From Lama guanicoe (taxonomy: Eukaryota): DNA of 48,253 nucleotides. The notes beneath the pieces were generated by a model that searched no databases, was not told the DNA's origin, and saw nothing but the letters and a program-made list of their open reading frames with translations. Within the stretch, counting starts at the first letter, position 1, and every line of letters starts with the position of its first letter. The stretch is from NCBI GenBank assembly GCA_013239625.1, contig MU053539.1, forward strand, positions 1 to 48,253, given 5' to 3'. The translations under genes were made by a program, and so were the position numbers. Positions 4,201 through 47,470 of the stretch are shown here, piece by piece.

Positions 4201-4220
4201 TCTTTTTTTTTTTTTTTACA

Positions 4221-10534: not shown

Positions 10535-10540
10535 TTTATT
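10535..10540 (-). terminator. Candidate poly(A) signal (AATAAA) of a minus-strand transcript
   Basis: tttatt on +. On the minus strand it is preceded by a U-rich, UTR-like stretch (10560-10900) and followed by a GU-rich ccttgtttcgtg. Confidence 0.35.
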
Positions 10541-11376: not shown

Positions 11377-11657
11377 TCAATGCCCCCGAGTCTCCTTTTT
11401 TACCACACAGCCAGGCAGGTGAAGGGGAGGGAACGGGCCTCGGTCCTGGGGGAAGAAGGAGGCTGGAGTTCCGTTGTCTTGGTTACCGCTCTGCTGAGCA
11501 TCCTCCCTGGTCGCTGAGCTCACGCAGGGGGCCGTGTGTGTGGACGGGGGCGAGGGGGAACAAGCCTCTCCCCGCGCTACAAGTATTTCTGCAACCAGGT
11601 ACTGGAGCTGACGGCTGAGATCAGTTACCAGGGAAACAGAAGCCTGGGCCCTGGGAT
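11377..11657 (-). other. Candidate terminal exon with an open frame of 92 codons to TGA (unidentified product)
   Basis: Acceptor ttttccattcttctcAG|at. The phase-1 frame reads (D)PRAQASVSLVTDLSRQLQYLVAEILVARGEACSPSPP...KKETRGH*. Confidence 0.3.
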
Positions 11658-11944
11658 CTGAGAAGAATGGAAAATCACCTCAGTACGATGTGAGACGCAG
11701 GGTGGATTACAGGAGGCTGTCCGGAGCCACTGAATTGTGCTCGCACAGAGGGCACCTGTGCGTGAAGACACACAGACACACAATTCTGTTCTACGTGCAC
11801 AGTGACCCCGTCTGGCGGGAGCATCTTGGACACATAGAGGACGCAGGACCCCAGGACATGGAAATAGAGGGGCGGGGTGGGTCCTTATGTTACAACAGCA
11901 ACAGCATCTCCTCCCCTGCATGACTTACCAGGACGTTTGCATTA

Positions 11945-25585: not shown

Positions 25586-26224
25586 TGCCTGCAGCAACAG
25601 GGGTGCCTCCCCCACTAGGCTGTGAGTCCCGTGCGGGTCGGGTCGTGTCTCCTCTCCCTTGGGACAGGGCCTCACACTGGGCCCGCGTCCATCTCCACCA
25701 CGCCTCCTGCCCGGCAGCTCCGTGATCTGGGACTCAGGAGTCACCGGGCTTTATTTCAACTTTCAAACGCCTAACTTGAAAGGAAGTTAGACATTTTCAA
25801 CGTTGAGGCTTTACTTTAGACCTGAATTTGATTCTCGACATGCTAATGAAAAATAAATTATTGCTGTTTGTGGAACACTTACAAGTTCACAATTTTCGAT
25901 TAATTTGGGTGTGCTAGTGTGAAATGCTTCGGTTTCAGCAGCTGCAGTACTTCCTTCTCCTCTTACTTTCACTTGTCAGGCTTTTCTTTATGTTTGCAAA
26001 GCAAGGGGAAGTTTTACATCCCTTTCCCCAACAGTCAGGTGACTTGCCCCAGGTGTGTTCCATGTCCTCCTGATGGGAGTGGCAGTGGACGAGTCCACAG
26101 TCAACTCAACTCAGATCAATCAACCTCTCCCTTTCCTTCTGGAAAACTGTCGGACTGAAACATCAGGAAGAGGTCGCAACACCTCATGTCGGAACTCTGG
26201 CAAATGACAGTCTCTCGATCGGCA

Positions 26225-26915
26225 TAAAACGCCCCAGGGACTCAGAGGTTTCAACCTCTGGAACATAGAACCAAAGACAGAGCAGACCTCACTCTGGGAC
26301 CCCAGTCTCCCGCCAGCTCTGCAGCATCATACTCTGAATACAGGCTCACAAATACCCCAGGGACTGCACACTATGAGTCACAAAACCCCAGAGACATCAA
26401 TGACATGCTAAGCTCAGTTACAGACCCACAAAACAGCAGAGAGGGGACCTCACTGCATTGGACACACACCACCAAACAATCCAGTGAACTGAAACTCCTA
26501 CGGGCTCGATCGATGAGGCCAGAGACACAAAATCAGCTCAGACATGACAGGTCTACATGCATTTTAGCAACTTCATAACCTGCAATGCAGAAACCCAATA
26601 GCTCCCAGGCCTCACAGCCTGGACACAGAAGCCACACAATCACAGAGCTCACACTCCCGGGCACAGACACACACAAACAGCTCAGAGCACTGGTGCCGTG
26701 GAGGTGGAGAGCGCGCTCACAACGTTACGTGCAGCCAGCATCGAAGAGACCTCAGACTGTGGTACCCCAAATCCCACCAAGCCCAACGTTCACAGCCTGA
26801 GACACCATAAACTCCCAAAGCTCCAGCAGCCTCAATCCCTGGCACACAGACTTACAGCCAGGTCAGAGATGACACACTCGGTAGGCAGAGCCACCAAAGG
26901 GTCAGACACCTGCCA
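26225..26915 (+). repeat. Degenerate ~38-bp tandem array, cluster 1
   Basis: Units include cagctctgcagcatcatactctgaatacaggctcacaa, tagctcccaggcctcacagcctggacacagaagcc and tcacagagctcacactcccgggcacagacacacacaaacagctcagag. Confidence 0.7.
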
Positions 26916-28380
26916 TCCTGTGTCAAAGAAACTTTGTCATCTCACAACTGAGGGTGTGGCCGCCGAGAAGCTCACTTCCTCACATGCCCATCATTCCAGC
27001 TGCAGACCCGAAGCTCTCTGGAGTCCAGCCACCTGCCTAGAGCCGTCACCACACGAATGGCACTGGGTGCCAGCAAAGGGACATTCATTCCCCTGCCCCA
27101 CTGAGGCAAGTGTGAGTCCGGAAAACACCTTCGCACGGCTCTGTGGCAGCATCCATCAAAATTTAAATTCCATCCTGCACCCACTCTCAGCTTCATGAAA
27201 AGAGGGACACGTGTCAGTCGTATTCTGCAATGTCCCTCCACATTTAGAATAGTGTGAGGCACCCAGTCGGGACTCGAGAGATGTCTGTTTAGCCAAAGGA
27301 TTGTTTGGACCAGCAGTTCCACTGCTATAGTGTCTTAAAGAAATATTCACACCTGCAGAGAGCTGTGTGTACAGTGACAGCAGCAAATTTCTGGGGGTGG
27401 GGGGAGTGCTAAATGTCCAGTAATAGGCATTGACCAGTGGAAGGGTAAGTGAGAGATGAAGTGTTCATATTATACCACGGAGCACCACTAGCTGTGAAAG
27501 ACAATGAGGGGAACCACTTTGACTGGCCAGAGAAGTTTCTAAATGAGAAGCGAGAAGTACTCCTACTCACCAGCGTCTGGGTGCGTGTGTCTACGTGATG
27601 TTTTTCCATGCAGAAAACACGGAATAGAGGGAAACACCTAAACTGACTCCAGTGGTCGCATCTGGTGATCAAACTGATGGAGGCAAGATCTGGAGTGCTT
27701 ATTACTCCTTCTGGTGTGGCTGACTCTATTTCCCAAAATGGCCCAAAATATATCCCAAGGTACATCCCTTTCTTTAAAAATTTTTTTTATTCAACTGTCA
27801 TGCATGTAGCACACTCACCCTTTGAATGGTTTTTTACCATATTCACCATGCTGTGCAACCAACCCCAATGCATAATCGCAGAACGTGAGCAGTCTCTCCG
27901 CAACGTCCCCTCCCACCGGCCCCTGGCACTCACTAACCTGCTTTCGTCTTTATGGAGATGCCTACTCTGGACATGTCATAAAAACAGAATCTTGCACTAG
28001 GCGGCCTTGTGTGTCTGCCTTCTTTCACTTTGCTTCATGTGTTCAAGATTGATCCATGTCGTAGCATGTATCAGTCCTCTGTTCTTTTTGATGGCTGAAT
28101 AATATTCTATTATACGGATATACCACTGTATTTCAAACTGTATTCATTAGCTGGTTGGCGTTTGGGCTGCTTGCACTCTTTGATTGTTGATTCATGCTGC
28201 CAGGAACATCTGTACGCAAAAGTTTTTATGTGAATTTATGTTTTCACACAATTTGGGACATACTTAGGCATAGAATGGCTGAGTCGCATGGCAACTGTGT
28301 GTGTAACTTTGAGGAACTGTCAACCTGTTTTCCACAGCAGCTGCAACATTCTGCATTCCCACCAGCAATGTCTAAGAATT

Positions 28381-28473
28381 AAAAAAAATTTTATGGCATT
28401 TCTGGGAATTGAATCCAGAACCTCGTCCATGCTAAGTAAGCATGCACTCTACCACTGAGCTATACACCCTGCC
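28381..28473 (-). mobile_element. tRNA-derived SINE (vic-1-like), nested in L1
   Basis: ctgggaattgaatccagaacctcgtccatgctaag...gcactctaccactgagctatacaccc. Confidence 0.85.
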
Positions 28474-29087
28474 ACTGAGGATTTAAACTTTCCCACATCT
28501 TCCCAGACACTTGTTACTTACATTTTAAAAATCATATCCTTACTAGCGGGTACCATGTTGTAATTCATTGTTTTCCATCTTGGCTTCCCTATGACTAATA
28601 TTTTCAAGCATCTTTTCATGTCCTTACTGAACATCTGTGTATGTTTTATAGAAACGTCTATTCAGCTGCTGAGTGCATTGTTAATTGGGTTCTTGGTCTT
28701 TTATTATTAGCTTCTAAGAGTCCTTTATACTTTCTGGGTCGTGGTTCCTATCAGAAATATGAATTACAAATATTTTCCCACATTCTCTGAGTTGTGTTTT
28801 CACTTTAGGATGGTACCCTGGAAAGCACATTTCTTGCTGAAGTCTCTTTTACCTAAGTTTTCCTTTATTACCTGTGCTTTTAGTGTCACATCAAAATCCA
28901 CTGCCTAAACCAAAGTCATAAAGATTGACTCCTATACTCTCTTCCAGGAGCTTTATTGTGTTAGCACTTCCATTTGGATTCTGATCCACTTTGAGTAATT
29001 GTGTCTGGCAGTATGAGGCTGGAAGGCAAATTCAGTCTCTTGCATGTGGATATCCAGTTGTCTTGGTACCATTTGCTAAAAAGACTG

Positions 29088-29476
29088 TTTTATTTTTTTA
29101 AATTGAGTTATAGTCAGTTTACAATGTTGTGTCAATTTCTGGTATAGACTGCAAGTTTTCAGTTATACATGCACATACATATATTCATTGTCGCATTCTT
29201 TTTCGCCGTGACCTACCACAAGATCTGTATATATTTCCATGTGCTATACAGTGTAATCTTGTTTATCTATTCTACACGTGCCTGTCAGCATCTACAAATT
29301 TCAAACCCCCAGTCTATCCCTTCCCACGCCACTCCCACATGGCAACCACAAGTTTGTATTCTATCTGCATGAGTCTGTTTCTGGTTTGTATTTATGTTCT
29401 TTTTGTTGTTGTTGTTGTTAAGATTCCAGATATGAGCGATCTCACATGGTATTTTTCTTTCTCTTTCTGGCTTACT
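29088..29476 (-). mobile_element. Camelid-type L1 3' end nested in older L1
   Basis: aattgagttatagtcagtttacaatgttgtgtcaatttctgg...gagcgatctcacatggtatttttctttctctttctggcttact, with flanks aaagactgtt/aaagagtgtt. Confidence 0.88.
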
Positions 29477-30408
29477 AAAGAGTGTTCTTTGCCATTCAGT
29501 TCTTTTGGCACTGTTGTCAAAAAGTCACTCATCACAGATACATGGACTGAGTCCCTGACTCTCGATTCTATTCCACTGATCTACATGTCTACCTTCACGC
29601 CAGTACCACACTGTCTTGTTAACCAGAGCTTTGTTATACGTTTTGAGATTGGACTGTATGAGTCCTCCAACTTTGGTTTTCATTGGTAAGGTTGTTTAAG
29701 CTATTCTGGGTCCCTGGAATTTCTATATGAAGTTCAGGATCAGCCTCTCAACGTCTAACAAACGGCAGGTAGAATATCAATAGGGATTATGCAGAATGTC
29801 TGGATCACTTTGAGGAACGCTGCCATCTTAACAGTTCATGAACACAGAATGTCTTCCCATTTACTTATGCTTTCTTTAATTTCTACTAACTGTGTTTTGT
29901 AATTTTCAGTGTACAACTCCTACACCTCTTTGGTTCAATTAACTCCTAAGTACATGTTCTTTTCATCATATTACAACTGGAATTGTTTTCTTCATCACTT
30001 ATTTGGAGTGTTCACTGCTAGCGTACAGAAATACAATTCAGTTTCGTCTATCAATGGTGGTGACGATTTCACAGGTGTATACATATTCCCAAACTCATGG
30101 AGAAGTACATATGCAATATGTACGGCTTTTTACGTGTCAAGCATACCACAATTAAGTGGTTTAAAGGAACAGAAATGAAAGCAAAATAAAGGCATTCCCA
30201 GAAAAACAAAAAGTCAGGAATTATGTTCCTAGCAGAACTGGCTCACAAGGAGAACTCAAGAAGTTCCTCAGGCTGCAGTGAGTGAGTCCAGATGTTAATT
30301 CGCATCCCCATGAAAAACCAAAGAGCACAGGTGAAGGTAATTATAGAAGTGCAAATAACTTTATGAATACACATTTTTACTCTTTTCGTCCCGTATGTAA
30401 AAAGCAGT

Positions 30409-31068
30409 TGTACATCACCAATTGTCAGAGAAATGCAAATCAAAACTACAATGAGATACTACCTCACACCAGTCAGAATGGCCATTATTAAAATGTCCAC
30501 AAGTGACAAATGCTGGGGAGGGTGTGGAGAAAAAGGAACCCTCCTTCACTGTTGGTGGGAATGTAGTTTAGTGCAGCCATCATGGAGAACAGTGTGGAGA
30601 TTTCCTTTAAAAACTAAAATTAGACTTACCACATGATCCAGCAATCCCACTCCTGGGCATATATCCAGGAGAAAACATAATTTGAAAAGACACATGCATC
30701 CTGATATTCACGGCACCACGATTTACCATAGCCAAGACATGGAAATAACCTAAAACTCCATGGACAGATGACTGCATAAAGAAGTTGTGGTGTACTTCTA
30801 CGATGGAATACTACTCAGCCATGAAGAAGAATAAAATAATGCCATTTGCAGCAACATGGATGGACCTGGAGAATGTCATACTAAGTGAAGACAGAAAGAG
30901 AAATAAGAATACCATGTAATATGGCTTATATGTGGAATCTAAAAGAAAAAAAGGACACAAATGAACTTACCTACAAAACAGAAACAGACTCACAAACATA
31001 GAGAACAAACTTATGGTCACCAGAGGGTAAACGGTGTGGGAAGCGATAAATGGAGAATTTGAAATTTT
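30409..31068 (+). mobile_element. L1 ORF2 C-terminus and 3'UTR fragment (younger family)
   Basis: ORF 30433-30636 [20 protein letters not shown]...[23 protein letters not shown] is the L1 ORF2 cysteine-rich end. Confidence 0.92.
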
Positions 31069-31074
31069 CACTTG

Positions 31075-32560
31075 TTGGGGAGTGATGGCAGTGTTCGCTG
31101 TCTTGGCTGTGATGGTGGGTTCTTTGGTTTACACATCTATCAAACTTCATCACATTGTATATCTGAAGTATGTGTACTTTACTCTACAGGAACCATACCA
31201 CAAGAACGGCGTTAAAAAGTGAAATAAAAAGTAAATAATAGAATAAGGAAAATAAAAAGCATTTGTATAAAACAACATCATATAATTGACTGTTGTCACA
31301 ATACCATATATAATGTAATATATTTGCCAATAACGGCACAAAGGCGGTGGTTGGGAGCAAAACTATGAGGTAAGGAAACAAATCTGGATGGTGACTCAAA
31401 TCCACAAGAACAAATGAAAAGAAGCTGAAATAGTGACAAAGAAGGTTAATATAACAGAAGTTAGAAATATACTCGATATTCTGTCTTATACCAGCTTTCT
31501 AAAGATGTAACATTACGTATAATGTAATAATGATAAGAATATTAATGGGATGTACCCGTTATAGATGTACTATACGTAACAATACGAGGAAAAGAGGGAA
31601 ATGGGAAGAGACCAACATAGGAGTAACGTTTCTCTATCTCATTAGAATTCATATACATCTGAAGCTGACTGTGATCAATTAAAATGCTTATGGTAGCCCT
31701 GGAACAGCTAAGGCAATAACCTAAAAAACAGTAAAAAAAAATCAGTAAAGAAGTTAAAATGCTACATTAGAAACTATCCATCTAATGCAAAAGAAAGCAG
31801 TAAATGAACCAGAGAACAAAAACACACGAGACACACGGGGAAAAAAGTATAACAGCAGGCTTCAGCCTGCATCAACATGAAACGTGAACAGATAAAATAA
31901 CCCAATCACAAGGCAGACGTTGACAGACTGGATGAAAGAAAAAAAAAAGATCCAACTGTCTGTTGTCTCCAGAGGACACAGTTTAGATTCAAAGATACAT
32001 AAATTTACCATACAACCTAGGAATTCTATTCCTAGACAATTCTACCCAAGAGGGATGAAAGCAAGTCAAAATACCCATACTCAAACACTCCGCACTTTTA
32101 TTCATATGAAGCAAACCTAGACACAACCCAAATACTCAACAACCGGTAAATGGATGAAAGAAAAACAGGGACACCCACACAGAGCAATACTACACGGTAA
32201 GAAAAAAGGAAGTACTGATGCACGCAGCAGCATGGATGCATGCCGAGCATGCCAAGCCAGAACAGCCGGTTTAGAAGCCTACCGCATTATATGATTTCAT
32301 GTGAATGGAATTCTAGAAAAGACAGAACTTCAGGCACAGAAATCTATCAGTGGTTTCCAGGCTATGGGAGTGGAGGAAGGAGTCTGATGGCACATGGCAC
32401 AAGGGAATATTTTTCTGTATTTTTATTGTGGAGGTGGTTACACAACTGTATATGCTTGTCAAAACTCTACAAACTGTGTCCTTTAAAAGGTTCACTTTTA
32501 TTGTATGAAATTTTATCTCAATTACCTCTGACTTTTTTTTAAAAAGGAAAAGGAACTTTT
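31075..32560 (+). mobile_element. Old L1 fragments (inter-ORF, ORF2 start and 3'UTR pieces)
   Basis: cccaatcacaaggcagacgttgacagactggatgaaag...gatccaactgtctgttgtctccagaggacaca (endonuclease start) and tatgatttcatgtgaatggaattctagaaaag (3'UTR). Confidence 0.75.
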
Positions 32561-32639
32561 AGGTAAAATATTTAAATACTGGTTACCGTATCCACCTACA
32601 GCGTGATCTCATAAATACGTCTTATTTCGGAATTCTTTG

Positions 32640-33445
32640 CAGACTGGGCCGTCTGCTGGTATTTCCCATGTCAATGGACAACTCCATCGTACTCCTATGA
32701 GTAAACACAGAAACTTAGTCATAACCATTTTTGCAACTCCCTCTCCTTCACCTCAAGTCCAAATCCTTGCTGAGTTCTGCCCATTTTACTTCCCAAATAC
32801 TTGATGTTTCCACTTTTTCCTGTGCCCACCCCATCAGCTCTAGTCCAAAGCCTCCCTGCTTCTGATTGTGAAACCTCCCTTCTAAGTGGCCTCTCACATC
32901 CGCTCAGTGTGTCGGTCTCTGTCTCCCTCTCCCCTCCCTCTCTTCCTGTTGCAGAGCTGTCCCTGACTTTACACGAAGACTACACTCCTACACAAGGACG
33001 TCGAGGCGTGGTCTAGCCCCTGCCCACCTCTTTAGCCATATGGAAAGCAGAGCTTCCTCTTGTCTCTCTTATTGGGCTTCTTTCACACCCTCCAATTTTC
33101 CAAACTTCACTTAGACTGTCCCCTCTTCCTGAAGCCTCTTGATTAGTTAACTCCTGGGCATCATTCACATTTCAACTCAAGTCATGTCTCTTCAGGGAAG
33201 ACTTCCCTAAAGATCTGGCTAAGGTCATTTCCTCCGAAGCCCTGGGGTGGGCCTCTCTGCTCTCACCAATCACAGCAGCAGTTTTCACGTTTATTTGTGT
33301 GACTGTTAGATTCACTATTGTCTCACGATTTCACATAAACTCCATGAAGGCAGTGATGTGTCTTTTTCTTTTTTTCGTATCCCCCAGACACCCAGCATAG
33401 TGCCCTGACCACAGGTGGAGCTTGGTGAACCATTAAACAGAGAGA
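32640..33445 (+). mobile_element. L2 3' remnant
   Basis: caactcaagtcatgtctcttcagggaagacttccct...taaactccatgaaggcagtgatgtgtc...cccagcatagtgccc. Confidence 0.7.
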
Positions 33446-33458
33446 TCATATTCATTTC

Positions 33459-33465
33459 ACTCACA

Positions 33466-33503
<38 letters not shown>
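33459..33503 (+). repeat. (CA)n microsatellite
   Basis: Direct reading of the sequence. Confidence 0.97.
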
Positions 33504-33506
<3 letters not shown>

Positions 33507-35039
33507 CGCTACCACCAGGCACATCCAGATCAGTATGTAGTGTCTGGGCAGCCTTCCTGAGCTGGTTCAGGAGGCTGAGGAAGCACTGGTGGTTTTGCTA
33601 CAGGGCACCTTTGAGCTTCCCTGAGGTGCCACAGCAGTACCTTCAGCAGGCCTAAGAAGCTCTCTGTGTCTGTCGGTGGTAAAGGCTGACTCCTTCCTGG
33701 CTTCACATGCTCAGCACCCCCTAGTTAGGGCTGATGGCGGGTCCTCAGAACGCTCATCACCAAGTGCAGTGAGGCCCTGCCAGCGCTCAGAGCAGGGAGC
33801 CCTCTCCCAACAATAATGGAGCACCCTATCCTCGTACTAGACATGGGAACTGTAGCCGTTCACCCCTCTTAACGTGTTTTCTCCCCTTTGCATTCACTTC
33901 CACGTTTCCTCCTTGAGTCACCCAATCCAGCTCTGCTCCTTCCCAACTGATGACTGCACCTGCATCTCACTCTCTGCGTATGGATTTACTGGGGGAGGGC
34001 TGGACCTACCTACCGCACTGTGTATCTTCTTCCTCTCTTCCCTTCTGAATCTGCAGGCTCCCAGACATCAAGAAAAGTGCTCCGGATGGCCCACAAATGG
34101 GGCGGTGCTGCAGGGGAGGGTGCGACCCTCATCCACAGCCTGGCTCAAAGCAGGACTTCCTTGTAAGTATTGCGTGTGGCCCCACCGAGCCACGGGAGCC
34201 AAAAAAGAGCGAAGGCCTAAGAAGTCCTAATACGGATACTTATGCGGATAGAACACCACTCTCTCTGTAGGGAAGTGCTAGTTGTGATTTGGGTTTGGCC
34301 TCTATCCTGTGTGGCCTCGTTTACACTTGCAGACTTATCTAACCTTCTATCAGGACCTCTCTGCTCCCCTCCCCGCCGCTCCCCACCTACTGTACAAAAG
34401 ATCATTCTCCTGCTTTCAATGCGCTGTCTGGTTTTTCACCTGGCAAAGATATAAAAACATTTTTTTTATTAAATCCTGAAACGTCAAGATACCTAAGAGA
34501 ATGGGTCTTCAGAAGGACTATTTTAAAATTAGAATAGAAAAATTGGCTATGGAATAATGAAGTACAGAAAATAAAAAGTGAATAATAAATGTTATTTGGA
34601 AATTTCCTAGAACTTCACATTTAAGAGAAAAACACTTAATATGTGGTCTCTTGTCTTCCAGGTTTCTTTCTATGCATTTTTAAAAACGATGAGGTGGGTG
34701 GGGAGGTAATGCCTTCATAATGTTGTATCTACTGCTCTGTTTATCATTATACTATGGATACGCTACTTTCCATAAGGATGAGGATGTTGACTGACATCAG
34801 CAGGAGCAAAGATAAGGATAGACCTTCACACCTACGGGGAACTGTCCTCTGTGACGTGTGCATATGGAGATGACACCCCAGTCTTTCATGCACTGAACAG
34901 ACGTCACCTTCAATCCATAAAGAGACCCAGTGTGATCTGATTCACGCTGCTGGACACAGTCACCTGCCTTTTGATCCAGGGGACACCGGACGCTGCAGCG
35001 TGTTCCAGAGTTTGGTGCCGGACACCATGTCTCTGTTTC

Positions 35040-35250
35040 TCTCTGGCCTGGGTACCAATCTGACTCAGCCCTTGCTGGCTGGGTGACTCTGGGTAAGTTC
35101 CTTCACCTGTAAACCTCTACGTGTCTCAGCCTTGTCATCTGTAAAAAGGGATGATAACATGAAAAACGCTTACCTCACAGTGTTGCTGTGAGTAACCGAT
35201 GACCCTTATATTACACATGTGCATAAAGACATGGCTAAACACAGTCCAGG
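35040..35250 (+). mobile_element. MIR SINE remnant
   Basis: ggctgggtgactctgggtaagttccttcacc...tctcagccttgtcatctgtaaaaagggatgataac...tacctcacagtgttgctgtgag. Confidence 0.8.
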
Positions 35251-35710
35251 AGCCTGAGCTTTTCCTCTTGTGTCTCTTCACTTCTGTTTCTGCTTCTACC
35301 GTATCCTTCCCCAGCCCCACATTCTCACCTTCCCCACCCCCACTCCACCCTCTCTCCCTTCTGCCCCTTTCCTCAGGCTCTCCACCTGAAAACACTATTG
35401 GCCATCTCCTCACGATTCAGCTCAGAAAACATGACTACCATCAGCCTTTTGTTAGGTCAATCACGGACATCAGCGGTAGAAACAACGAACACAATAAAAC
35501 TGGCAGTGTGAAAACTACACGAGAAATAAAGTGTTACTAGGAAAGCTTGACTATTAACAATTCTCGTATCTTCATCACATTCAGATCTTCAGAATTTAAT
35601 GAAGGAGAATTACACTTGACAAAACTAATAGCAGAAAGAAAAAAAGCCATATGATGAGGTTCTTAGGCATTTAAATTTCACCTGAAATGTTTTTAAACAT
35701 TTATATACTC

Positions 35711-36508
35711 ATCACCTCACACCAGTCAGAATAGCCATCATACAAAAGTTCACAGATGATAAATGCTAGAGAGGGTGTGGAGAAAAGGGAACCCTCCTAC
35801 ACTGTTGGTGGGAATGCAGTTTGGTGCAGCCACTGTGGAAAACAGTATGGAGATTCCTCAAAAGACTAGGAATAGACTTACCATAGGACCCAGTAATCCT
35901 ACTCCTGGGCATACATCCAGAGGGAACCCTAATTCAAAAAGACTCCCGCACCCCAATGTTCACAGCAGCACTATTTACAACAGACGAGACATGGAAACAG
36001 CCTAAATGTCCATCGACAGATGACTGGATAAAGAAGTGGTGGTATATTTATACTGTGGAATACTATTCAGCCATTAAAAGACAACATAATGCCATTTGCA
36101 GCAACATGGATGTCCCTGGAGAAGTGAAGTAAGGCAGAAAGACAAAGAAAAATACCATATGATATCAATTATAGGTGGAATCTAAAAAAAAAGAAAGAGC
36201 AATGAACTTAAATATAAAACAGAAACCGATTCACAGACATAGAATACAAACTTGTGGTTGCCAGCGGGGAGGTGGGTGGGAAGGGACAGACTGGGAGTTT
36301 GAGATTGGTAGATACTGACAGGCAAATATAGAATAGATAAACAAGTTTAGACTGTATAACACAGGGAAATAGATAGAAGATCTTGGGGTACCTCACGGGG
36401 AACAAGAATATGAAAATGAAGACATGTATATTCATGTATGACTGAAAAATAGTGCTGTATGCCAGAAACTGACACAGCCTTGTAAAGCCACTATCACTCA
36501 ATAAAAAA
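35711..36508 (+). mobile_element. Young camelid-type L1 3' end with TSD
   Basis: cacctcacaccagtcagaatagccatc...ctatcactcaataaaaaa, with TSD ttatatactcat at 35701 and 36509. Confidence 0.92.
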
Positions 36509-36619
36509 TTATATACTCATGTTCTATAATCATCCAGTGACAACTTGATTTCCCATCATTATACAAATCCTATGAAGAGGTCATTAGAGGTCTAATTTCC
36601 TAGAGAAATCTGCACCAAG

Positions 36620-39320
36620 TCAGACAGAGCTGAAAGAGCTGAAACAAGTGTACAAACAGTAGCTGGACTCTCTCAGTAATATACTGAACACAGCAATATA
36701 CTGAACATACACTGAAAATAGAAAGCAAATTCGAATGCATAAATGAACTGAATGACCATGAACTAACTGGATGTTCTCACAAGCACAGAACCCTCCACGT
36801 AACAAGGCAGGCTATACTACGTTCTTTTCAATGCCATGTGGAGGTTTCCCTAAAGTACACTATATGCTGGGTCATAACACAAATCTTATCAAATGCAAAA
36901 TAGTTGAAATCATATAAAGAATGTTGTCTGACCAAAAGAGAAAAACTACCAATAAGTAAGAAAAAATGAAGAGGAAGATCTCCAAACACAAGAAAAATTA
37001 AACCGCACACTTCTAAATAGTCCATGGACCAAAGGGCAAGTATCAAGGGAAGTTAGAAACGATCTTGAACAAAATGAAAATGAGAAAACAACCTACCAAA
37101 ATGTGCAGGATGCAGCTGCAGCAGTGCCAGCATTAAATGTACAGCAGCAAATGCTTGTAGTAGAAAGACTACAGAACCCAAATCAGTAATGAAAGCTTCT
37201 AGTTAAGAAACTAGAAAAAAAAATCAAAATCAATTGAAAGCAAGGAGAATAAGAGAAATAGAGGTTGGAACAGAAATGAGAAAAAGAATAGAGATAATGA
37301 AACCCAAAGCTGATTGTTTGAAAAGGTCAATAGCATTACATCAACTTCTACACAGACAGACCAAAAGAAAAAAAAAAAAAAGACAAGTAAAGACACAGCT
37401 TACCAACATCAGGCATGAAACAGGCTACAGACAGACCGCACAGAAATGACAAGAATCCTATGAATGACTCTATATACCTACATTTGGCAATTTAGGTGAA
37501 ATGGAACAAATTATCAAAGCTCATTCAAAACTAAACAGATCATCTGAATAGACGTGAATCTATTTAAAAATCAAATTTGTAGTTGAAAAACTTACAGGAA
37601 AGAAACCTCCAGGCCCAGATGGTATCCCTGGAAAATCCTACCAAACGTGTAAGAAGAAATACCAGCAACCCTACACGGTCTCTTCAAGGAAGTAGAAGAG
37701 AAGGCCACTTGTTGAATCAGTTTATCAGATTAGCATTACCTTGATACCAGAATCAAACAGAGACAGTAATAGCAAATCAAATTCAATATATTAAAAGAAT
37801 AATACATCATGATCTACTGGGGTTTATCCCAGAAATGCAAAGCTGGTGCAGCATTCAAAAATCCATCAATCAATCCACCATATCAGCATACCAAAGAAAA
37901 AGAACTCCATGATCGTATCAACTGATGCAGAGAAAGCACCTGACAAAATTCAACAGCCATTCATGAAGAAAACACTCAGCCAACCAGGAGTAGAAGGGAG
38001 CTTTTAAAACCTGATACACAGCACCTACAATACCTGCACTTTCTGTCCTACTTCATGGAGAAAGACTAAATGTTTTCTCCCTAAGATCAGGAACAAGGCC
38101 AGGAGGATAGCCACTCTTATCTCGGCTAGAATTCAACATTGTACTAGAAGTCTTAGCCACTCTAGTAAGGAAAGAAAGGAAAGGAAGTGGTTTAGACTGG
38201 GAAGGAGGACATCAAACTGCTGCAATTCACAGATGACAAGATTCCCTACATAGAAAATCCCATGAAATCTATTAACAAAAACTCCTATAACTAATAAGCA
38301 ACTTTAACAATGTTGCAGGATACAAGCTCAACGCAAAAAAAAAAAAAAATCAGGTGTATTTCTCTGTACCAGCAATAAACAATTACAAAACAAAACTTCT
38401 TTAAAAGACTCCCACATACCATTTATAACAGCTTCTTCCCCTCTCCCGAAACCTAGAGAAACAGAAGCAAGACCTCTATGTTCAAAATTACAAAATGCTG
38501 AAGAAATATAAGACTTGTCAAAATGGAGACACATACTGTGTTCATGGGTTGATAAATTCAATATAATTAGGATGTCACTACACCCCAAATAGATCTATCA
38601 ATTTCATACAATTCCAGTAAAAATCCCAGCAGGATTTTTTTCTACATACAGACTAACCTATTATAAAATTGCTGTGGAAAGGCAAAGGAAGTACAATAGC
38701 CAAGTAATTCTGAAAAACAAAACTGGAGGAGTAACAGCAACTTTTAAGATTTACTATGCAGCTTCAACCAAGATATATAAACAATCTAAGTGTCCCCAGA
38801 GGGATGAATGGATAAAGAAAATGTGGTGACATATACAATGGAATATTATTCAGCCATAAGACAGAAATTCTGCCTTTTGCAACATGAATGGACCTTGAGG
38901 GCTTTATGCTAAGTGAAATAAGCCAGAGAGAGAAAGACAAATATTCTATGTTCTCCCCTATAAGTGAAATCTAAAAAAGTCAAACTCACAGAAATAGTTT
39001 AGAAGGGTGGTTGCCAGGGGCTGGGGGAAATGCTGGTCAAAGGGTACAAACTTCCAGCTACAAAATGCTTAACATATGAGGATCCAATGTACAGCATGGT
39101 GACGGTAATTACTAGTACTGTATTATCTATTGAAAGGTAAGAGGGTAGATCTGAAATGCTATCAAAATAAAAAAAAATTTTTCAGGTAATGATGTGAGGG
39201 GATAATGTTAACAAACTTTAATGTGGTAACCATTTTGCAACATATACGTATATCAAATCATCACAGTTGTATAACTTAAACTTACATGTAACATGTCAAT
39301 AATAGCTCAATAAAGCTAGA
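36620..39320 (+). mobile_element. Decayed L1 ORF2 (endonuclease end and RT) plus an L1MA-like 3' end from ~38765
   Basis: Degenerate RT motifs: tcaactgatgcagagaaagcacctgacaaaattcaacagccattcatg (SIDAEKAFDKIQHPFM-like, ~37918), ggaacaaggccagga (GTRQG-like, ~38090) and ttcacagatgacaagatt (FADDMI-like, ~38226). Ends ctcaataaagct. Confidence 0.9.
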
Positions 39321-40139
39321 GATATAAAAGAGTCCTCAGTTTTTCCACTGGGAGTGCCTTCAAGCTGGATCTGTGTCCCTCTGACACCTTCCCATCATCC
39401 CTCGAACTTTCCCTTATTACTACATGACAAGTTGAGGCAGGCTCATCTATCCTTACCCTCCTCCAGCTTGGGAACCCATCATTTTGTGGAGAATGGTATT
39501 TAGAAGCTAGGGGGAGGTATACTTATTGCCACTGGGATGTTGCTGTTTCTAGAAATTTAGGGATTAATGTGTGTACACATACAGGCGTACATCTGTATCT
39601 ATCAATCGACCCACATATGCACACATCTTGATTGAAACCCAAGAGTTCTCATGGAGAACTTTAATTTCAGTACTGTAATAGCTCGGGATTTGTTCTTGTT
39701 TACTTCCTTTCCATATTTGAAATTCCCTTTTCCAAAAGGGACAGGCATCGCCCCCACCACCCTTATACACTTACTGAGCTGATGAATCCCGAAGCATATT
39801 AGCCATCCCTCCTCCACATAGAGGCCCTCCTCACACGCTGGGCTGAACCATCCCCCGCCCTTGACTTCCACGCTCCGCTCCAGCTTGAGTCCCTGGGCCA
39901 GTCAACCTTTTCCCCACCCAACCTCCAGGGACATCCTCCTTCCGCCTTGGGCTCTGACTCCCCAAGCTGGGAGGCCTCTACATGCATACACTTGCCTTGC
40001 CTTGCAGCACCTAGTCGCTTTAGGACTGAACTGCTCAAGCACAAACCAAAAGGGAAAAGGTGAATATATCTTAATATAATCAGTTTATGAAGGTGAAGTG
40101 GGCCAAATCCAAACAATATGATGAAGCCAGAGTGTTCTT

Positions 40140-40585
40140 GCTCACAGTCCTACAGATCCCCAAACAGCTCAGATACTTTACACCTTAACACAAACATCCC
40201 CCTGCACCCCTCCCAAAAGAAGCTGAGAGACATCACAACTTGGGATCCAGAATCACAAACAGCTCAGAGACCTCATACTCTGGACTGCAGATACCTAGAG
40301 ATCTCACACCCAGGGACTCAAATTTCCAAACGCTCAGAAGATGCACACCCGGGCATACAGGCACACAATGCCTAAGAGGCTTTGTACCATGGCTCACAAA
40401 ATCCACTCAGATAAAATATCCCATTCACCCACAATCTCTGCAAAGGCTCAGACATCAGAGAGATCAAAGGCACCCAAACAGCATGTGTGATGTCATACCT
40501 AGCGGTACACATCCCCAAATGGCATGACACACTTTACTTCCCCGGAAGAGACACTAAGAAAGCTCAGAGACCTCGGCCTCGACAT
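40140..40585 (+). repeat. Degenerate ~38-bp tandem array, cluster 2
   Basis: acagctcagatactttacacc, aagctgagagacatcacaacttgggatccagaatcacaa, acagctcagagacctcatactctggac, acgctcagaagatgcacacccgggcatacaggcacacaa, aagctcagagacctcggcc. Confidence 0.8.
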
Positions 40586-40589
40586 TAAC

Positions 40590-41480
40590 CGCACTGCATC
40601 TGTCCGACTGACGGTGCGCTGCCACACGCGCCCAGGGAGACTCGTGACTGGGCCAGGGCTCAACACGGCTGAGAGAGCTCACAGGAAGACAGCGCCGTCA
40701 CCCTGCACGGCAGCCACTGCGCCCAGCCTCGCCACTGACCCGGACAGCCATTCGGCCCCCACGGAAGGGTTAGTTGTGGAGTAGTCGAACTCCGAAAAAT
40801 CTACACTCCCAAAAGGCCCGCGCGCGGTCGCACGCACGCACACGCACGCACACGCACACGCACTCGCACACGCACACGCACACGCACGCGACCTCTCACA
40901 CTAAACTCCCGCTTGGCGACCACAGCGTCCATCCCAGAGGCGGCCAATGGGAACTGGGCAAGCGAGGAGAGAGGGCGGGAGTAGCGGGACTTCCGGCGCC
41001 GCTAGAACGTCCGAAAGAGCTTATTCCGGCAATCTCGCCGTGACCAATCACCGCCCTGAACAGTCCTTGACTGCGTCCCCCGCACCCGGCAGCCAATCTC
41101 TCGCCTCGTTTCCACCCCGAGCTGGATGTGACCATGTGAAAACGTAGGGATGGAGTTGGAGAAGTAACAAAGAAGGCTGCCACCTCAGACCCGGGATCCG
41201 TCTGGGCTCGAATGCGCCGGGAAAATGGAGTCGTGCCAATGGAGATAGACCCGGCGGTGCCATGAGTGCCTCCTCTGGGAAATGTGGTTGATGCCTGACG
41301 CGGTGAACGGGGACCCTCAATGTTGTTACACACGCGATGGATTATTCCAGTACCGATACCCCCTTCCTAGTGGTACCTTCCCGAGTGACGGTGCTCCCTC
41401 TACGCCCCGCAGTGGTACGTCCCAGAACAGAACTATGCCATCTCGTGCGCCCCTTGGTGGTCGGCTTGGGGAACGGCAGA
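40590..41480. promoter_or_regulatory. CpG-island promoter (ZNF143/SBS-like, CCAAT x4, GC box, ETS)
   Basis: ctacactcccaaaaggc (40801-40817), ccaat at 40944, 41044, 41093 and 41236, gggcgg (~40973) and acttccgg (40989-40996). Dense CpG. Confidence 0.82.
40819..40890 (+). repeat. (CACG/CACGCA)n alternating purine-pyrimidine tract
   Basis: cgcgcgcggtcgcacgcacgcacacgcacgcacacgcacacgcactcgcacacgcacacgcacacgcacgcg. Confidence 0.95.
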
Positions 41481-41997
41481 TGGAGATGCCAGGGTTGTTC
41501 CCCAAAGGGAGGGGAGGGCAAAGGCAAGATGAAAATGAAAACCCCACAGATCCCTGCAGTCTTGGATTCGGGAAAAAGTCTTCGTATACTGAAGATTACT
41601 TCCCTGTCGTGGCCACCACTATAACAAGGAGCATTACGAAGCGTTTTCTCTGTGTTGGGCATTGTGCTTGCTCGTGCCTCCTTGCGTAACACAGAAGAGG
41701 TCTTGTGGGAGAAGGGAGCCAAAGTCCCCCAGGAGGCAGGAGGGTTAAAACTCCCAACTGGGGCCAGAAAGCCTAATATGGGGCAGGTGTCTGTCACTGA
41801 CTGTGAGTAATAGGTGGAAAGGACAGCAGGGCCTTCGATTGTTTTAGGAAAGGGGCCATCTCCCAGGAGCCCCAAGGACACTGAGTCGGTGAGATAAAGA
41901 CCACGGGCTTCATCACTATCCTGTCATCTCTGTACATGTTCCCTAGCAGAATCCTCGGCCTGTCTGGCTATGCCTCTCTCCACAACTTTGCACTTGC

Positions 41998-42515
41998 TTA
42001 TTCATTCCGTCATTCACTCATTCATTCATTCTCTCCAAAGCATGTGTCAGGCACAATTATGGGTGTTAGGAAAGAGAAAAAAAAAAACCCTTACCCTGAT
42101 GGAGCTTACCTTCTGTTGGGATCATACAGCCTCCAAAATGTAAGTAATCTGTCACGTGTTGGTAACTTCTATGATTAAAATAAAATTGCAATAAAGAAAT
42201 AGAGAGGGGGAGCATATCCACGGAGTGGTCAGGGAAGGTCTTTCTAAGATTGTGACATGTGAGCAGAAACGAGAGGAGAAGAATATCTGCGAGAAAAGCA
42301 TCCCAGAGAGAGGTAAGAGCCAGTGCAAAAATGCAGGAATGGAACTCAGTCCGGCGTGCATGGGCACAGTGTGGAGGCCAATGTGTGGCTGGCACAGCAG
42401 ATGACAGGAGAGGTAGGGGATCCCCTGAGAGAGGTAATGAGGACCAGGTCATGTAGGGCCTTCTGGGCCATGGTGAGGACTTCAACTTGAACCACGGGAG
42501 GGTTTTTGGCAGGAA
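41998..42515 (-). mobile_element. L2 3' remnant
   Basis: ttcattcattc...gtgtcaggcac...ggagcttaccttctgttggg...gtggtcagggaaggtctttctaag...ggccatggtgaggactt. Confidence 0.8.
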
Positions 42516-43854
42516 GCCCCCATGCCTCTTTCAGAGGCCATAAGCCCAGGTCACCCAATATATGTGGAGGAGCTCCCAGTTTGCTCCCAGGGAGTACCCC
42601 TCCCCCAGCCCCTCTGCAGCTAATTTACCTTTCCTGAACAATCTCTTAGATCTCGGGGAGTCCCCCCGGCTGCTCCCCATGAACATCATGTCCCCATGTC
42701 AAAGGATGATACCTTCAGAAGAGGATGAGCAAGGGCCCTCATGGTGTGAGTGAGGTCACACCCAGTCCCGTACAGGGCACATGAGGGACAGTGTCACAGG
42801 CACAGAGAAGACAGAGAGAAAGAGCATTAGAGAGACAGGGGCAGAGAGACCATTTCTGGCAACACAGTGTCCCCACTTGATTAGCACCCACCTATGGGCC
42901 CCGATATCTGCTGTGCATGATGTGCCTGTCTCTGCAGGGGCCAAGAAGCCCTCCCCAGGGACGGTCTCTAGGTAATGACTCAGCTGCCCGAGGCCTGGGC
43001 CGCAGTCACACTGCCTTGACAGCCATCGGGGCCCTCTGCCCATCAGGACGAGGGCACGTTCCCGTTATGGGGAGGCTCCTGCTGTACAGTGTCCCACACA
43101 GCCCCTCCAGCCCTTGTCTGCTCTCCTGCTGACCTCAGTGCCAAAAAAAAAATGCTTTAGGCAGGGGAGGGGAAGCTGGTCTCCCTACATTTGTGGTGGG
43201 GGTTTGTGCAAATTGATCAACTGAGGCATTTCCTCTGCTGCTTGGAGGCTCACCCCTGTAGCTGCCACCAGCACCTGCAGAGGGAATGTGGGCATTACAT
43301 TCAGTACATCGAGTACCAAGCAGGTGTGTGATGGAGGGACACGGAGACAAATCCTGACGATGAGTCAGTCACAGGGTCCTTATGGCCCTGGGCAAAACTT
43401 GCCCTCCCCACAACCTGGCCTGAATGGTGCTTGTGGAAGCTTCCTTGCCTCCCCCAAGGAGCCCAAATTTACATCTACTTCCTCCCCTCCTCCTGAGCCT
43501 AGAAGCCCCATCCACACTGCATCTCAGGCCCCCCTATCTGCAAAAGGTGCCCATCTCGTTGGGGGTTGGGCAGATCGCTGAGTGAATATGTATACGTGGG
43601 TTTTATCACAGGACACCTAGCAAGGTTAGTGGTGATGTCAGGAAATATTGTTCATGTCCATATTAAACCATGGGCTTCCATAACCTGTACACGACAGAGG
43701 GCTTACCCTCCCTGAGAATGGGGACCCTAAGCTTTCATCTCCATGGTACCAGGGCAGGCATGGGAGAAATCACAGCAAAAGTGAAATCACACGCCTACTT
43801 CTAAGGCCTGTGAGAGTAAGGTCCAGCCTGCCTTCCTCTCAAGAACATTCTCAC

Positions 43855-44615
43855 ATGCAGATACATGAACAGCTCGGAGACCCAACCCTCTGGACAAACA
43901 CCATCCCCCAAATACTTTAGAGACCTCGTGCCCTGCGGCAGAGACCTACAAACAGTTCAGAGACCTCTCATCCTAAACATTAACCACAAACAGCTCAAAC
44001 ATGTCACACCTGAGACACAGACCCCAGCCAGCTCAGATAATTCCTACTGGAGATGCAGAAAATTTCGGATGATTATTGCTGGCCACCCAGTTCTACAAAA
44101 GTTCTGTGGTTACCACCGAGGTTGCTGACCGCCAGTGCACTCTGAAGGAATTCGGAGTGAAAAACACGATGAGACCTTCTGTGCTTTGGACAAACAGGCC
44201 CTTATTTAGTTAGATGCATACCTCATGAAGAAGTTCAATGACCCGAGCTCCTTGCATCTTTCCGTACACAGAAAAGCATGGAAATCATTAACTTGAGCTA
44301 TCTGATCTTTGTGGTTAACACTAATCTTGTACCAATATGTATGCTTGACTGCATGGATGCCCTAGGCAAAATTCTCTAAGCTGGCTTCTCCCCTGCCTTT
44401 TCAGGGCCGTTTCCTCAGAGCTGAGTGGCTATCTCCCCGGCTACAGTCCTCAGCAAGACCCTGAATAAAAGCTAAACTCACAGTTCTTAAGTTGTGTGCT
44501 TTTCTTTAAGTTGACACTACTCAGGCCACAGCTGCCCTTCAGCTCAGAGGCCTCACACACCTCCCAATAGAGCCTAGAGTGTGCACCCTGGAACACAGAG
44601 CCACACATCTTTAGC
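43855..44615 (+). repeat. Degenerate ~38-bp tandem array, cluster 3 (interrupted by the LTR at 44048-44516)
   Basis: acagctcggagacccaaccctctggac, acagttcagagacctctcatcc and acagctcaaacatgtcacacctgagacacagacccc before the LTR. cagctcagaggcctcacacacc...caccctggaacacagagccacac after it. Confidence 0.75.
44048..44516 (+). mobile_element. Solo LTR (ERV1, MER34/MER39-like) with 4-bp TSD
   Basis: TG...CA termini flanked by ctac (44044-44047 and 44517-44520). ggctacagtcctcagcaagaccctgAATAAAa...ctttaagttgaCA. Confidence 0.88.
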
Positions 44616-45719
44616 TCTGGGCTGCTGTGTGGGCAGTGACAGTGACTCTGGCCCAGCAACCCCCAGGGCGAGAGGCCTCAGGTGTGCCGATCCTTGTTGT
44701 GTGCAGTCACCACCATGTCATCGTGAGGAAGGCAGGTTCACTCCAGGGATGGGGAGCACCCTGGAGCAGAGGGATCCTGAGAGTGACCTCTCATGTGTGG
44801 GTTCTGGGAATGGCCACCATCTGGCCAACCGTGGTCACCTCTGTACATGGTCACTTTTGCATCCTGCCCCACGGGGAGTTTAGTGTGAATCCCACATCCC
44901 CCGGAGGAGGAATGTGGACCCGGTCATCTCTGGGGTCTCTCAGGACCCGCTGTGGGGTACTGGATCCTGGAGCTATGAGAGGTCTTCACAGTGCCCTTGG
45001 CAACTATGTTAAATCCATCTGATCACCCCTGTCATTTCCCAAACTCCCTCTCCTAATGACAGCTGCCACAACTCCTGTCTCTCCCCTGTCTGCCCCCTTA
45101 GCCCACCACCAGGCCTCCCCTTCCACCCCTGGGGCCTCTTTAGCCCCTCCCCCAGCCCTAGTCACAAGGCCTCAGTTACACCCCCATCCCAGTTTGCTTC
45201 CTCTCACCCAGCACCCAGCGCTGCCTCAGGGCATCCCCTCAGGACCCTCCGTGCTCCCTGCAAGGACAGAACATTCTGCAGGACACCTGTCTCCTGCCCA
45301 CACACAGGGGTCACGCATAAGGTCCCCGTTGGGGCACATCTGGAAATCTCTACAGGATCCAGATGAAACTCCAGACCCAGACCAGGAGTCCAGGGCAGTT
45401 CCCCCAGGGCTGCGGGGAAGGGAGATGGTTTTTGAGGGGAGGAGCTGCGGTGAGTGTCCCCCAAGAGTTGGGATGACGGTGCAGGGCTGGGTCTGTGAGG
45501 ACAGGGAGTGGACCCTGAGGGGCCTGGGGCTGTGTGAACGCCAGGACTGCCCCAGCTCCTGTCCTTACGTTCGACCCAGCCAGTTGCCTGCCTTCTCTGG
45601 GCCCGAGTGTCCTCACCGGTGACAGGGGCAACAGGGTTTTCTCCCAAGGGGCCTAGGGAGATTTAAGTGAGACGGCACCTAACCAGTGCTAAGGACACTG
45701 CAGATCAGATCAGGGGTTC

Positions 45720-46240
45720 CCTAAAACGCAGAGCCCCGCAGGAGAGCGCCAGCGGACTCCCTCAGTGACCTCACTCAACTGGCCACTGACCAGGGAAGTG
45801 TCTCCAGCCTGTCAAGAGGACAGGGGGCCCTCCTGGAGGCTGGGTTCTCCAGGTCCTCCAGCGCTTAGGGCCGAGCCCGCCATTTGCGAACCCCAGTCGC
45901 AACCTCAGGGCCCGGGTGTGCAAGTGCGAGTGCGGGGACGGACTTGGGGGTCGGCCCTTGTCCCGCAGAGGAGCCAGAGCCGACGGCCTCTGGGTGGGCG
46001 GCTTAGAGAGGTCCTGGTTCCTTGCCTCCAACGCCCCACAACCAATCAGGGGCCCCAACGCTGGCTCCTGGTTTCTTCGAAACTGCTGGAGATGGTCGTG
46101 GTCAAAATGGGGCTGGAGCAGCCTCCCGGACTGAGAAAGGGGGTCCCTCCAAGTCAGATTGGGGTTTGGGTGCCAAGACAGCATCCTCGCCTTCTCTATC
46201 CAAAGCTGGGGCTTTCTCCCTGGGGTGCGGCGGACTTTTT
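45720..46240. promoter_or_regulatory. CpG-rich promoter-like region
   Basis: ccgccatttg (45877-45886, YY1-like, reading caaatggcgg on minus), gggtgggcgg (~45992) and ccaatca (46042). Minus-strand GTGAG donors lie at ~45616 and ~45774. Confidence 0.55.
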
Positions 46241-46424
46241 ATCTTCCCTCCATACACAGAATTTGCATTGTTATCCAGTAGACCCTCCTCCCCTGTGGTA
46301 CCTCCTATAGTGGTGCCTCCCGTCTCTGCACCCACAATGGTTCGTTCCAGTAGCAGAAGGTTCCATCCTCATACCTCCTCCCCAGACACCTCCAGGAGGT
46401 GAGACCCCAGTGGGGGCTGCTTCT

Positions 46425-46819: not shown

Positions 46820-47470
46820 TTCTCTCTTGCATCACTGATGGACAGCATTGTGGTAGCATCTATCAAAGTGAAAAATCCTTCCACTGCTAGGTCGGTGAGG
46901 GCGGTGATGCGGTGTTTAGGTCCATTGTGGTCAGTCTCCAGTGCCCAGTACATAGTAGGTGCTCACTGGATGATCGGTGAATACTGCGTTTGACCCAGCA
47001 ATTCCACTTTAAATGTGTGTAATAAGCACACACATTCACAGCACTGTGCGTACAGGGAAGGTAGCAGCAAACGACCATGAACCGCCTCTAGATGTCCATT
47101 AATAGTCAATGATCATTAGATGGTAAATGAACGGTGATGGGTTCGTATGACACCAGGGAGCACACGCTGGCCATGGAAAGGAATGAGGGGACCAGTCTGT
47201 ACTGATCAGAGAGATCTTCTTCAGGACATGTTGTTCATGTGGGGGCGGGGAAGCAAAGCGGAGATGCTCATGGTTGGACCTGTTGTGTGTGCGTGTTGTT
47301 TAAATACAGAGAAATATGTTTGAAAGGAACAAGGAAACACTCATAACTAACCCCACCGGTAGGCCCAGAGTAGAGAACGTGGAGGAATGATCTGACCTGT
47401 GTGGTCTGTGTACTGATGTAGTAATGGAATCTTTTACACCAGCCCCATGTTCACGTATTATTTGAGTAAC
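46820..47470 (+). mobile_element. Old L1 (L1ME-like) 3' remnant
   Basis: tttgacccagcaattccacttt...cattcacagcactgtgcgtac...tagatgtccattaatag...aaggaatgagg. Confidence 0.65.

What the first reader, a model, noticed from the sequence alone, without database searches (positions are those of the whole stretch)
26225..44615. One degenerate ~38-bp tandem-repeat family in three separate, co-oriented arrays
Seen: arrays at ~26225-26915, ~40140-40585 and ~43855-44615 share a unit close to CACAAACAGCTCAGAGACCTCACACnCTGGGACACAGAC (by-eye consensus), all in the same orientation. Cluster 2 directly abuts the 40.6-41.5 kb CpG promoter, cluster 3 lies ~1.1 kb left of the 45.9-kb promoter, and cluster 1 contains a small CpG patch (26690-26745). 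On the minus strand, the likely sense strand, units read GTCTGTGTCCCAGnGTGTGAGGTCTCTGAGCTGTTTGTG, which is GU-rich with GTGAG donor-like cores. It matches no TE family I recognise. Inference: an ancient promoter-proximal first-intron repeat module, duplicated with its promoter. It could be an array of protein or U1 binding sites, or an lncRNA repeat domain.
Basis: partly seen in the sequence, partly recalled or inferred. Interest (0 to 1): 0.7.

Follow-up and report, generated by a model that had tools for sequence, protein, structure and literature searches.

The report
Fossil minisatellite duplicated with a promoter
Three worn-out runs of the same 39-40-base repeat lie in a camelid genome, two of them beside copies of one old duplicated promoter; the repeat is real and ancient, but it looks like decaying passenger DNA and nothing found shows that it regulates anything.

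Summary
About 35 decayed units of one 39-40 nt repeat form three same-strand arrays (26229-26927, 40156-40586, 43861-44626). Profiles built from any one array hit only the other two. Array 3 is one array split in register by a 469-bp solo LTR. The promoters beside arrays 2 and 3 share a paralogous block (0 of 200 shuffles), so 'duplicated with its promoter' is supported for those two. The 45.9-kb copy is not a CpG island (o/e 0.42, bulk 0.41), and array 1 has no promoter. Units are about 70% like their consensus and equally diverged within and between arrays, with no invariant core (best 8-mer intact in 7 of 35). Splice-donor (U1) sites are not enriched and the RNA does not fold better than shuffles. 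Best reading: an ancient promoter-proximal minisatellite, copied by local duplication and now drifting. I could not establish the host gene, the direction of transcription, genome-wide spread or Dfam/MSR1 membership: no genome was held, read-laying gave no result, and no repeat library was available.

The parts
26229..26927 (+). Array 1, about 17 unit slots of the 39-40 nt repeat; no promoter next to it
   Evidence: mean identity to consensus 0.71
26938..26975 (+). Possible remnant of the sequence that follows array 2 (40597-40635); weak
   Evidence: 63 of 3000 random segments score as well; unanchored test not significant (55 of 200)
27303..27533 (+). Old L1-type 3' piece right of array 1, 67-72% like 46988-47212 (L1 label from recall)
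40156..40586 (+). Array 2, about 10 unit slots, abutting the CpG island
   Evidence: mean identity to consensus 0.71
40590..41500 (.). CpG-island promoter: o/e 0.93 (inflated by a CpG-rich microsatellite at 40831-40889), four CCAAT boxes, ETS, two ZNF143/SBS-like motifs, GC boxes (motif patterns recalled)
41256..41454 (+). Block paralogous to 46169-46379; marks the duplication of the promoter module
   Evidence: 234 vs 101+-17, 0 of 200; 74.5% over the best 145 columns
43861..44047 (+). Array 3, left part (5 units)
44048..44516 (+). Solo LTR, 469 bp, TG...CA, 4-bp target-site duplication CTAC, AATAAA at 44464; inserted inside a repeat unit (ERV1-like by recall)
44521..44626 (+). Array 3, right part (about 3 units), in register with the left part across the LTR
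44852..45004 (+). Possible further, more decayed units between array 3 and the second promoter copy
   Evidence: z 3.8, 0 of 300 shuffles, 1 of 19 non-control tiles tested
45600..46400 (.). Decayed paralog of the 40.6-41.5 kb promoter (CpG o/e 0.42); candidate minus-strand donor at 45616

Best explanation
An ancient minisatellite that no longer has a sequence-specific job. Step 1 (inferred): a 39-40 nt unit was amplified head-to-tail by slippage or unequal exchange just left of a CpG-island promoter, probably at the start of the first intron of a leftward transcript. Step 2 (shown for arrays 2 and 3, inferred for array 1): the promoter-plus-array module was copied locally in direct orientation while the array was still fairly uniform. 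Step 3 (shown): turnover stopped and all units drifted about 30% from the master. The 45.9-kb promoter copy lost its CpG excess, array 3 took an LTR insertion, and array 1 now has L1-type DNA where a promoter would be. Today the arrays are passenger DNA next to one live-looking promoter.
For: Units are 0.69-0.71 identical to consensus in all arrays. Pairwise identity is the same within and between arrays (difference -0.003; 1271 of 2000 permutations). Unit order is not shared between arrays (99, 284 and 221 of 400 permutations as good). The promoter block is paralogous. There is no invariant core: best 8-mer intact in 7 of 35 units, best 10-mer in 4 of 35. The LTR sits inside a unit, and 15 of 31 intervals are off-period. 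No donor enrichment, no RNA structure, and no Rfam hit in the arrays.
Against: One 8-column stretch is better kept than in neutral simulations: +0.078 above the mean vs about +0.04, reached by 1, 2 and 0 of 80 runs. An earlier version with edge columns gave 0 of 60. My seeded segmentation may cause part of this, but weak selection is not excluded. The flanks left of the arrays show no paralogy (23-26 of 200 shuffles), and the promoter cores align only weakly (4 of 200). So the extent of the duplicated module, and array 1's membership in it, are not proven. Direction of transcription rests only on GC skew (-0.19 and -0.18 on + left of the island) and one candidate donor.
Confidence: 0.6

Rival explanations
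1. Functional homotypic protein-binding array that tunes the adjacent promoter, as MSR1 clusters or the Peg3 intron-1 YY1 repeats do. One candidate reader is ZNF768, whose two-part site could form across unit junctions.
For: Array 2 abuts a CpG-island promoter, and the core is mildly better kept. The consensus dimer fits the published ZNF768 rule (<=3 mismatches, linker 20+-3; PMC6344866 section 24) with 3 mismatches and linker 23. At <=4 mismatches the arrays have 13 sites vs 4.0+-2.2 (0 of 150 shuffles).
Against: The consensus fit is reached by 96 of 1000 dinucleotide shuffles. Only 2 real array sites meet the published rule (0.57 expected; 18 of 150), and the 13 looser sites are not independent because units are copies. 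No Peg3-type YY1 motif lies in any array, even with 2 mismatches. Array 1 has no promoter and array 3's promoter has decayed, yet all three arrays are equally diverged.
Confidence: 0.17
2. The units are degenerate copies of an already catalogued mammalian minisatellite, most plausibly an MSR1 relative. This concerns identity, not function, and is compatible with the best explanation.
For: [quoted passage not shown] Part of the unit resembles MSR1 as I recall it; this is recall only and was not tested.
Against: The period here is 39-40. The MSR1 consensus exists only as a figure in the paper and was not found as text, so no alignment was made.
Confidence: 0.13
3. The unit is transposon-derived (a shortened MIR core, or an internal repeat of an old LTR/L1 element), and the arrays may be separate insertions.
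For: The unit dimer aligns to a majority sequence of 5 MIR-like copies from this window at score 103, reached by 1 of 2000 base shuffles and 45 of 3000 window segments. Units score 67.1 vs 62.0+-1.1 against those copies.
Against: A profile of the same MIR-like copies has no hit in the arrays at E<=0.5. The two MIR anchors at a shortened spacing are matched as well by 431 of 1000 dinucleotide shuffles, so composition can explain the similarity. The paralogous promoter block explains co-orientation without independent insertion.
Confidence: 0.06
4. RNA-level module: a ladder of U1/splice-donor sites like the F7 intron 7 minisatellite, or a structured lncRNA repeat domain.
For: The minus strand of the arrays is 65% G+T, and GT(A/G)AG words occur 10 times.
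Against: Donor-scoring sites number 10, 3 and 1 at three thresholds, against 11.7, 5.6 and 2.2 in shuffles. GT(A/G)AG 10 vs 7.1+-2.4 (47 of 300). Folding z-scores are -0.48 and -0.67. In F7 the repeated donors are identical copies of the authentic site and normally stay silent (PMC1557585 abstract).
Confidence: 0.04

Closest known systems
MSR1 minisatellite of human 19q13 (Rose et al. 2016, PMC4725990; Rose 2018, PMC6112826)
   Same: GC-rich unit of similar size, short clusters beside promoters or in intron 1, old mammalian origin, degenerate copies exist, not itself a CpG island.
   Different: Here the period is 39-40 and units are about 30% decayed. No copy-number variation or expression effect is shown, and sequence membership could not be tested.
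Peg3-DMR first-intron tandem repeats with YY1 sites (PMC4196374, passages)
   Same: Degenerate tandem repeat directly beside a CpG promoter that may be bidirectional.
   Different: Peg3 keeps about 10 recognisable YY1 motifs in every mammal. This array has no YY1 motif and no invariant core.
F7 intron 7 37-bp minisatellite with repeated 5' splice sites (PMC1557585, abstract)
   Same: Similar unit length, possibly at the 5' end of an intron.
   Different: Donor-like sites are not enriched here, and the units do not demonstrably span an exon-intron border.
MIR core / ZNF768 bipartite site (PMC6344866)
   Same: The consensus junction fits the lenient published site rule at its limit.
   Different: The fit is not significant against dinucleotide shuffles (96 of 1000), only 2 real sites meet the rule, and a MIR profile from the window does not hit the arrays.

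Membership tests
Minisatellite / tandem array (general) | Head-to-tail units of 10-100 bp with a shared consensus | tested here: met
   35 unit slots, median regular interval 39 nt
VNTR (active minisatellite) | Near-identical units with copy-number variation | tested here: not met
   Units are about 55% identical pairwise and TRF finds nothing. Copy-number variation itself was not measured.
MSR1 | Unit length 36-38 bp | tested here: inconclusive
   Regular intervals span 36-43, median 39; consensus 39-40
MSR1 | Sequence match to the MSR1 consensus | not testable with these tools
   Consensus is a figure only; no text version found; no Dfam library
MSR1 | Location in the region orthologous to human 19q13 | not testable with these tools
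   No gene identified in the window; no genome held
Peg3-type TF-site array | Repeated, near-invariant TF motif inside otherwise diverged units | tested here: not met
   Best 8-mer intact in 7 of 35 units; YY1 motif absent from the arrays at <=2 mismatches
F7-type donor-multiplying minisatellite | Each unit carries a copy of a real 5' splice site | tested here: not met
   donor counts at or below shuffle means
MIR-derived repeat / ZNF768 site array | Homology to MIR core; two anchors 20+-3 nt apart with <=3 mismatches | tested here: inconclusive
   2 sites, 18 of 150 shuffles; consensus fit 96 of 1000
KRAB zinc-finger cluster promoter module (my initial guess) | Downstream KRAB/SCAN exon and C2H2 array | tested here: not met
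   No such motifs in six frames; no Pfam hit above cut-off in 450 of 462 ORFs. Exons outside the window cannot be excluded.
Promoter-plus-array duplication | Colinear paralogy of non-repeat flank at a similar offset from each array | tested here: met
   Arrays 2 and 3: 0 of 200 shuffles. Array 1 inconclusive (63 of 3000).

The most novel reading that the evidence does not exclude
An uncatalogued minisatellite family older than the placental radiation, too decayed for TRF, that marks the start of intron 1 in a family of duplicated ZNF143/CCAAT-type promoters across mammals. It would still act as a low-affinity multivalent docking array (for example for ZNF768 across unit junctions) that sets promoter output, i.e. 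a second MSR1-like regulatory repeat class.
Probability: 0.1. Interest if true: 0.6.

Novelty: new member of a known kind. Interest (0 to 1): 0.24.

Why it matters
If the best explanation holds, it matters little: it is a dated fossil of a promoter duplication, and a reminder that standard tandem-repeat finders miss arrays at about 70% identity. If the family proves genome-wide, promoter-linked and constrained across mammals, it would add a hidden class of promoter-proximal repeats comparable to MSR1. That could be tested directly with a profile search and existing ChIP data.

Tried and rejected
Genome-wide search: no whole genome is held, so enrichment at TSSs was not tested.

Transcript structure: one search lists RNA or probable-RNA runs holding 0.05-0.22 of the words of 39.4-46.7 kb; the two highest (0.22, 0.20) are from one study. 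None was laid (one search gave no result), so they are not used as evidence. DNA runs of four coded organisms hold 0.91-1.00 of the words, but most are flagged as possible sources, so this shows only that the stretch is not an assembly artefact.

Gene identity: motif regexes; Pfam on 450 of 462 ORFs >=45 aa outside masked repeats, with 2 weak hits below cut-off and the 12 ORFs beyond 47.27 kb unscanned; three protein searches, none; phmmer, one unrelated repetitive protein at E 1e-4; PDB, none; exon and codon-bias scans, nothing I recognised. The KRAB-cluster guess is therefore unsupported.

Relatives elsewhere: a 23-nt pattern found 0 metagenome hits. A 17-nt core found 59, 1 and 31 loci in metagenome, viral and GTDB contigs. 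None of the 91 had more than one unit hit, and 3 of 91 read by eye were single chance matches. These collections are mostly non-mammalian, so this is no test of absence.

Other tests: extension of array 2 into the CpG island, z 1.4, not significant. Relation of the 6.7-kb island to the other promoters, none. Rfam found only two tRNA-like hits outside the arrays. Earlier scan notes had nothing by sequence, place or relatives (one search covered 1-12000 only).

Literature: ten searches found no description of this repeat. The library is partial and no search was by sequence. Figures and bioRxiv supplements were not visible, and the MSR1 logo figure bears on membership.
Full report
Context. The window is mammalian non-coding DNA. 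Its SINE and L1 content looked camelid to me (recall), and earlier notes on the same genome call it camelid or alpaca-type (unchecked). I found no coding exon: no KRAB, SCAN or C2H2 motif in six frames apart from one stop-containing chance match, no Pfam hit above cut-off in 450 of 462 ORFs, and nothing in protein or PDB searches. No whole genome is held and read-laying gave no result. The host gene, TSS and transcribed strand therefore remain open.

The observation. The three arrays exist. Seeded segmentation gave 17, 11 and 8 unit slots; I dropped one overlapping slot in array 2 and used 35. Profiles built from a single array hit the other two arrays 6, 8 and 7 times at E<=1, always on the + strand, with no hit elsewhere in 48 kb. 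This test does not depend on the by-eye consensus. A 14-nt core occurs 22 times with <=3 mismatches against 6.5+-2.4 expected. Raw periodicity is modest (4, 20 and 6 of 300 shuffles) and TRF misses all three arrays.

Anatomy. Array 2 (40156-40586) abuts a CpG island (40590-41500, o/e 0.93, partly inflated by a CpG-rich microsatellite) with four CCAAT boxes, an ETS site, GC boxes and two ZNF143-like motifs (motif patterns recalled). Array 3 is a single array interrupted at 44048-44516 by a solo LTR with TG...CA ends and a 4-bp target-site duplication. The pieces either side are in register with the consensus, so the array is older than the LTR. A few more decayed units may lie at 44852-45004 (z 3.8, 1 of 19 non-control tiles). 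The region 45.6-46.4 kb is paralogous to the island: 41256-41454 aligns with 46169-46379 at score 234 against 101+-17 (0 of 200), the whole non-array blocks at 437 against 316+-33 (0 of 200), and the cores weakly (4 of 200). Its CpG o/e is 0.42, equal to bulk DNA, so I read it as a decayed copy. Array 1 (26229-26927) has no promoter. Its right flank weakly resembles that of array 2 (63 of 3000) before running into L1-type DNA, and its 'CpG patch' is 6 CpGs. The left flanks of the three arrays are unrelated (23-26 of 200).

History. Units are 0.71, 0.71 and 0.69 identical to the consensus and about 0.55 to each other, the same within and between arrays (1271 of 2000 permutations). Unit order is not shared between arrays. 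This star-like pattern means the arrays separated while still fairly uniform, or were homogenised afterwards, and have drifted since. Two old L1-type pieces in the window are 67-72% alike and the promoter block 74.5% over its best 145 columns. The repeat is therefore at least as old as these; that it predates the camelid lineage, and that orthologs exist in other mammals, is inference.

Function tests. U1/donor array: donor-scoring sites on the minus strand number 10, 3 and 1 against 11.7, 5.6 and 2.2 in shuffles, and GTGAG 9 against 6.1 (scoring matrix from textbook frequencies). RNA structure: z -0.48 and -0.67, and no Rfam hit in the arrays. Protein-site array: the best 8-mer is intact in 7 of 35 units, and the Peg3 YY1 motif is absent. 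Against my reading, the best 8 columns are better kept than in neutral simulations (+0.078 vs about +0.04; 1, 2 and 0 of 80 runs). Seeding on that core may explain part of this, but weak constraint is not excluded. The consensus junction fits the lenient ZNF768 rule (PMC6344866) at its limit, which 96 of 1000 dinucleotide shuffles also do. Only 2 real sites meet the rule (18 of 150), though looser sites are in excess (13 vs 4.0). A MIR origin scored well against base shuffles (1 of 2000) but not against dinucleotide shuffles of the anchors, and a MIR profile does not hit the arrays. For direction, G-rich minus-strand DNA left of the island and a candidate donor at 45616 favour leftward transcription, which would put array 2 at the start of intron 1. 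This is not shown.

Comparison with what is known. It works like, or looks like, a promoter-proximal minisatellite of the MSR1 kind (36-38 bp, degenerate copies genome-wide, promoter and intron-1 clusters that modulate expression). Membership could not be tested because the consensus is only a figure and no Dfam library is available; a partial resemblance is recall only. It fails the defining tests for a Peg3-type TF array and an F7-type donor ladder. Searches of non-mammalian collections returned 91 single chance matches and say nothing about mammals. Ten literature searches found no description of this repeat, in a partial library and not by sequence.

Papers seen. PMC4725990: passages, sections 8 and 21, one supplement searched without hits. 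PMC6112826: whole text. PMC8535263, PMC9956082 and PMC4196374: passages. PMC6344866: abstract, passages and section 24. PMC1557585: abstract and outline. All others: search listings only.

Verdict. A real, old, probably uncatalogued or unrecognised minisatellite that travelled with a duplicated promoter and most likely has no present function (0.6). A surviving role as a weak binding array is the main rival (0.17). Interest 0.24; new member of a known kind.

Noticed in passing
window 1-58 and 6065-6122; N gap 4221-4475: The first 58 bases of the window are a 96.6% identical inverted copy of 6065-6122. With the nearby gap this looks like a scaffold-end or mis-orientation artefact, though a real inversion is not excluded.
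   Followed up: no
window 6300-7200: Separate CpG-island promoter (o/e 0.72) with a perfect X-box-like motif at 6706 next to an ETS site at 6725 and a strong minus-strand donor at 6692; unrelated to the other two promoters. Gene not identified.
   Followed up: partly
window 44048-44516: Intact-looking solo LTR with a 4-bp target-site duplication and a poly(A) signal, inserted inside a repeat unit and about 1 kb from the decayed promoter copy; a possible polymorphic or lineage marker.
   Followed up: partly
window 27303-27533 and 46988-47212: The same old L1-type 3' segment lies to the right of array 1 and to the right of the array 3 module, same strand, 67-72% alike: a shared ancient insertion or two independent ones; unresolved.
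   Followed up: partly
window 25750-26040: AT-rich patch in GC-rich surroundings with AATAAA on both strands (25852 +, 25755 -), just left of array 1; may be a transcript end.
   Followed up: no
window 41360-41445 and 46275-46360: The best-kept part of the paralogous promoter block seems itself to hold short repeats of a GTGGT-containing word; seen by eye only.
   Followed up: no
window 40831-40889: CpG-rich (CACGCA)n microsatellite inside the CpG island, next to a ZNF143-like motif; absent from the paralogous copy.
   Followed up: no
window 10550-10682 and 10861-10875: Two candidate plus-strand exons with plausible splice sites seen by eye, without an obvious reading frame; perhaps a non-coding transcript from the 6.7-kb promoter.
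   Followed up: no
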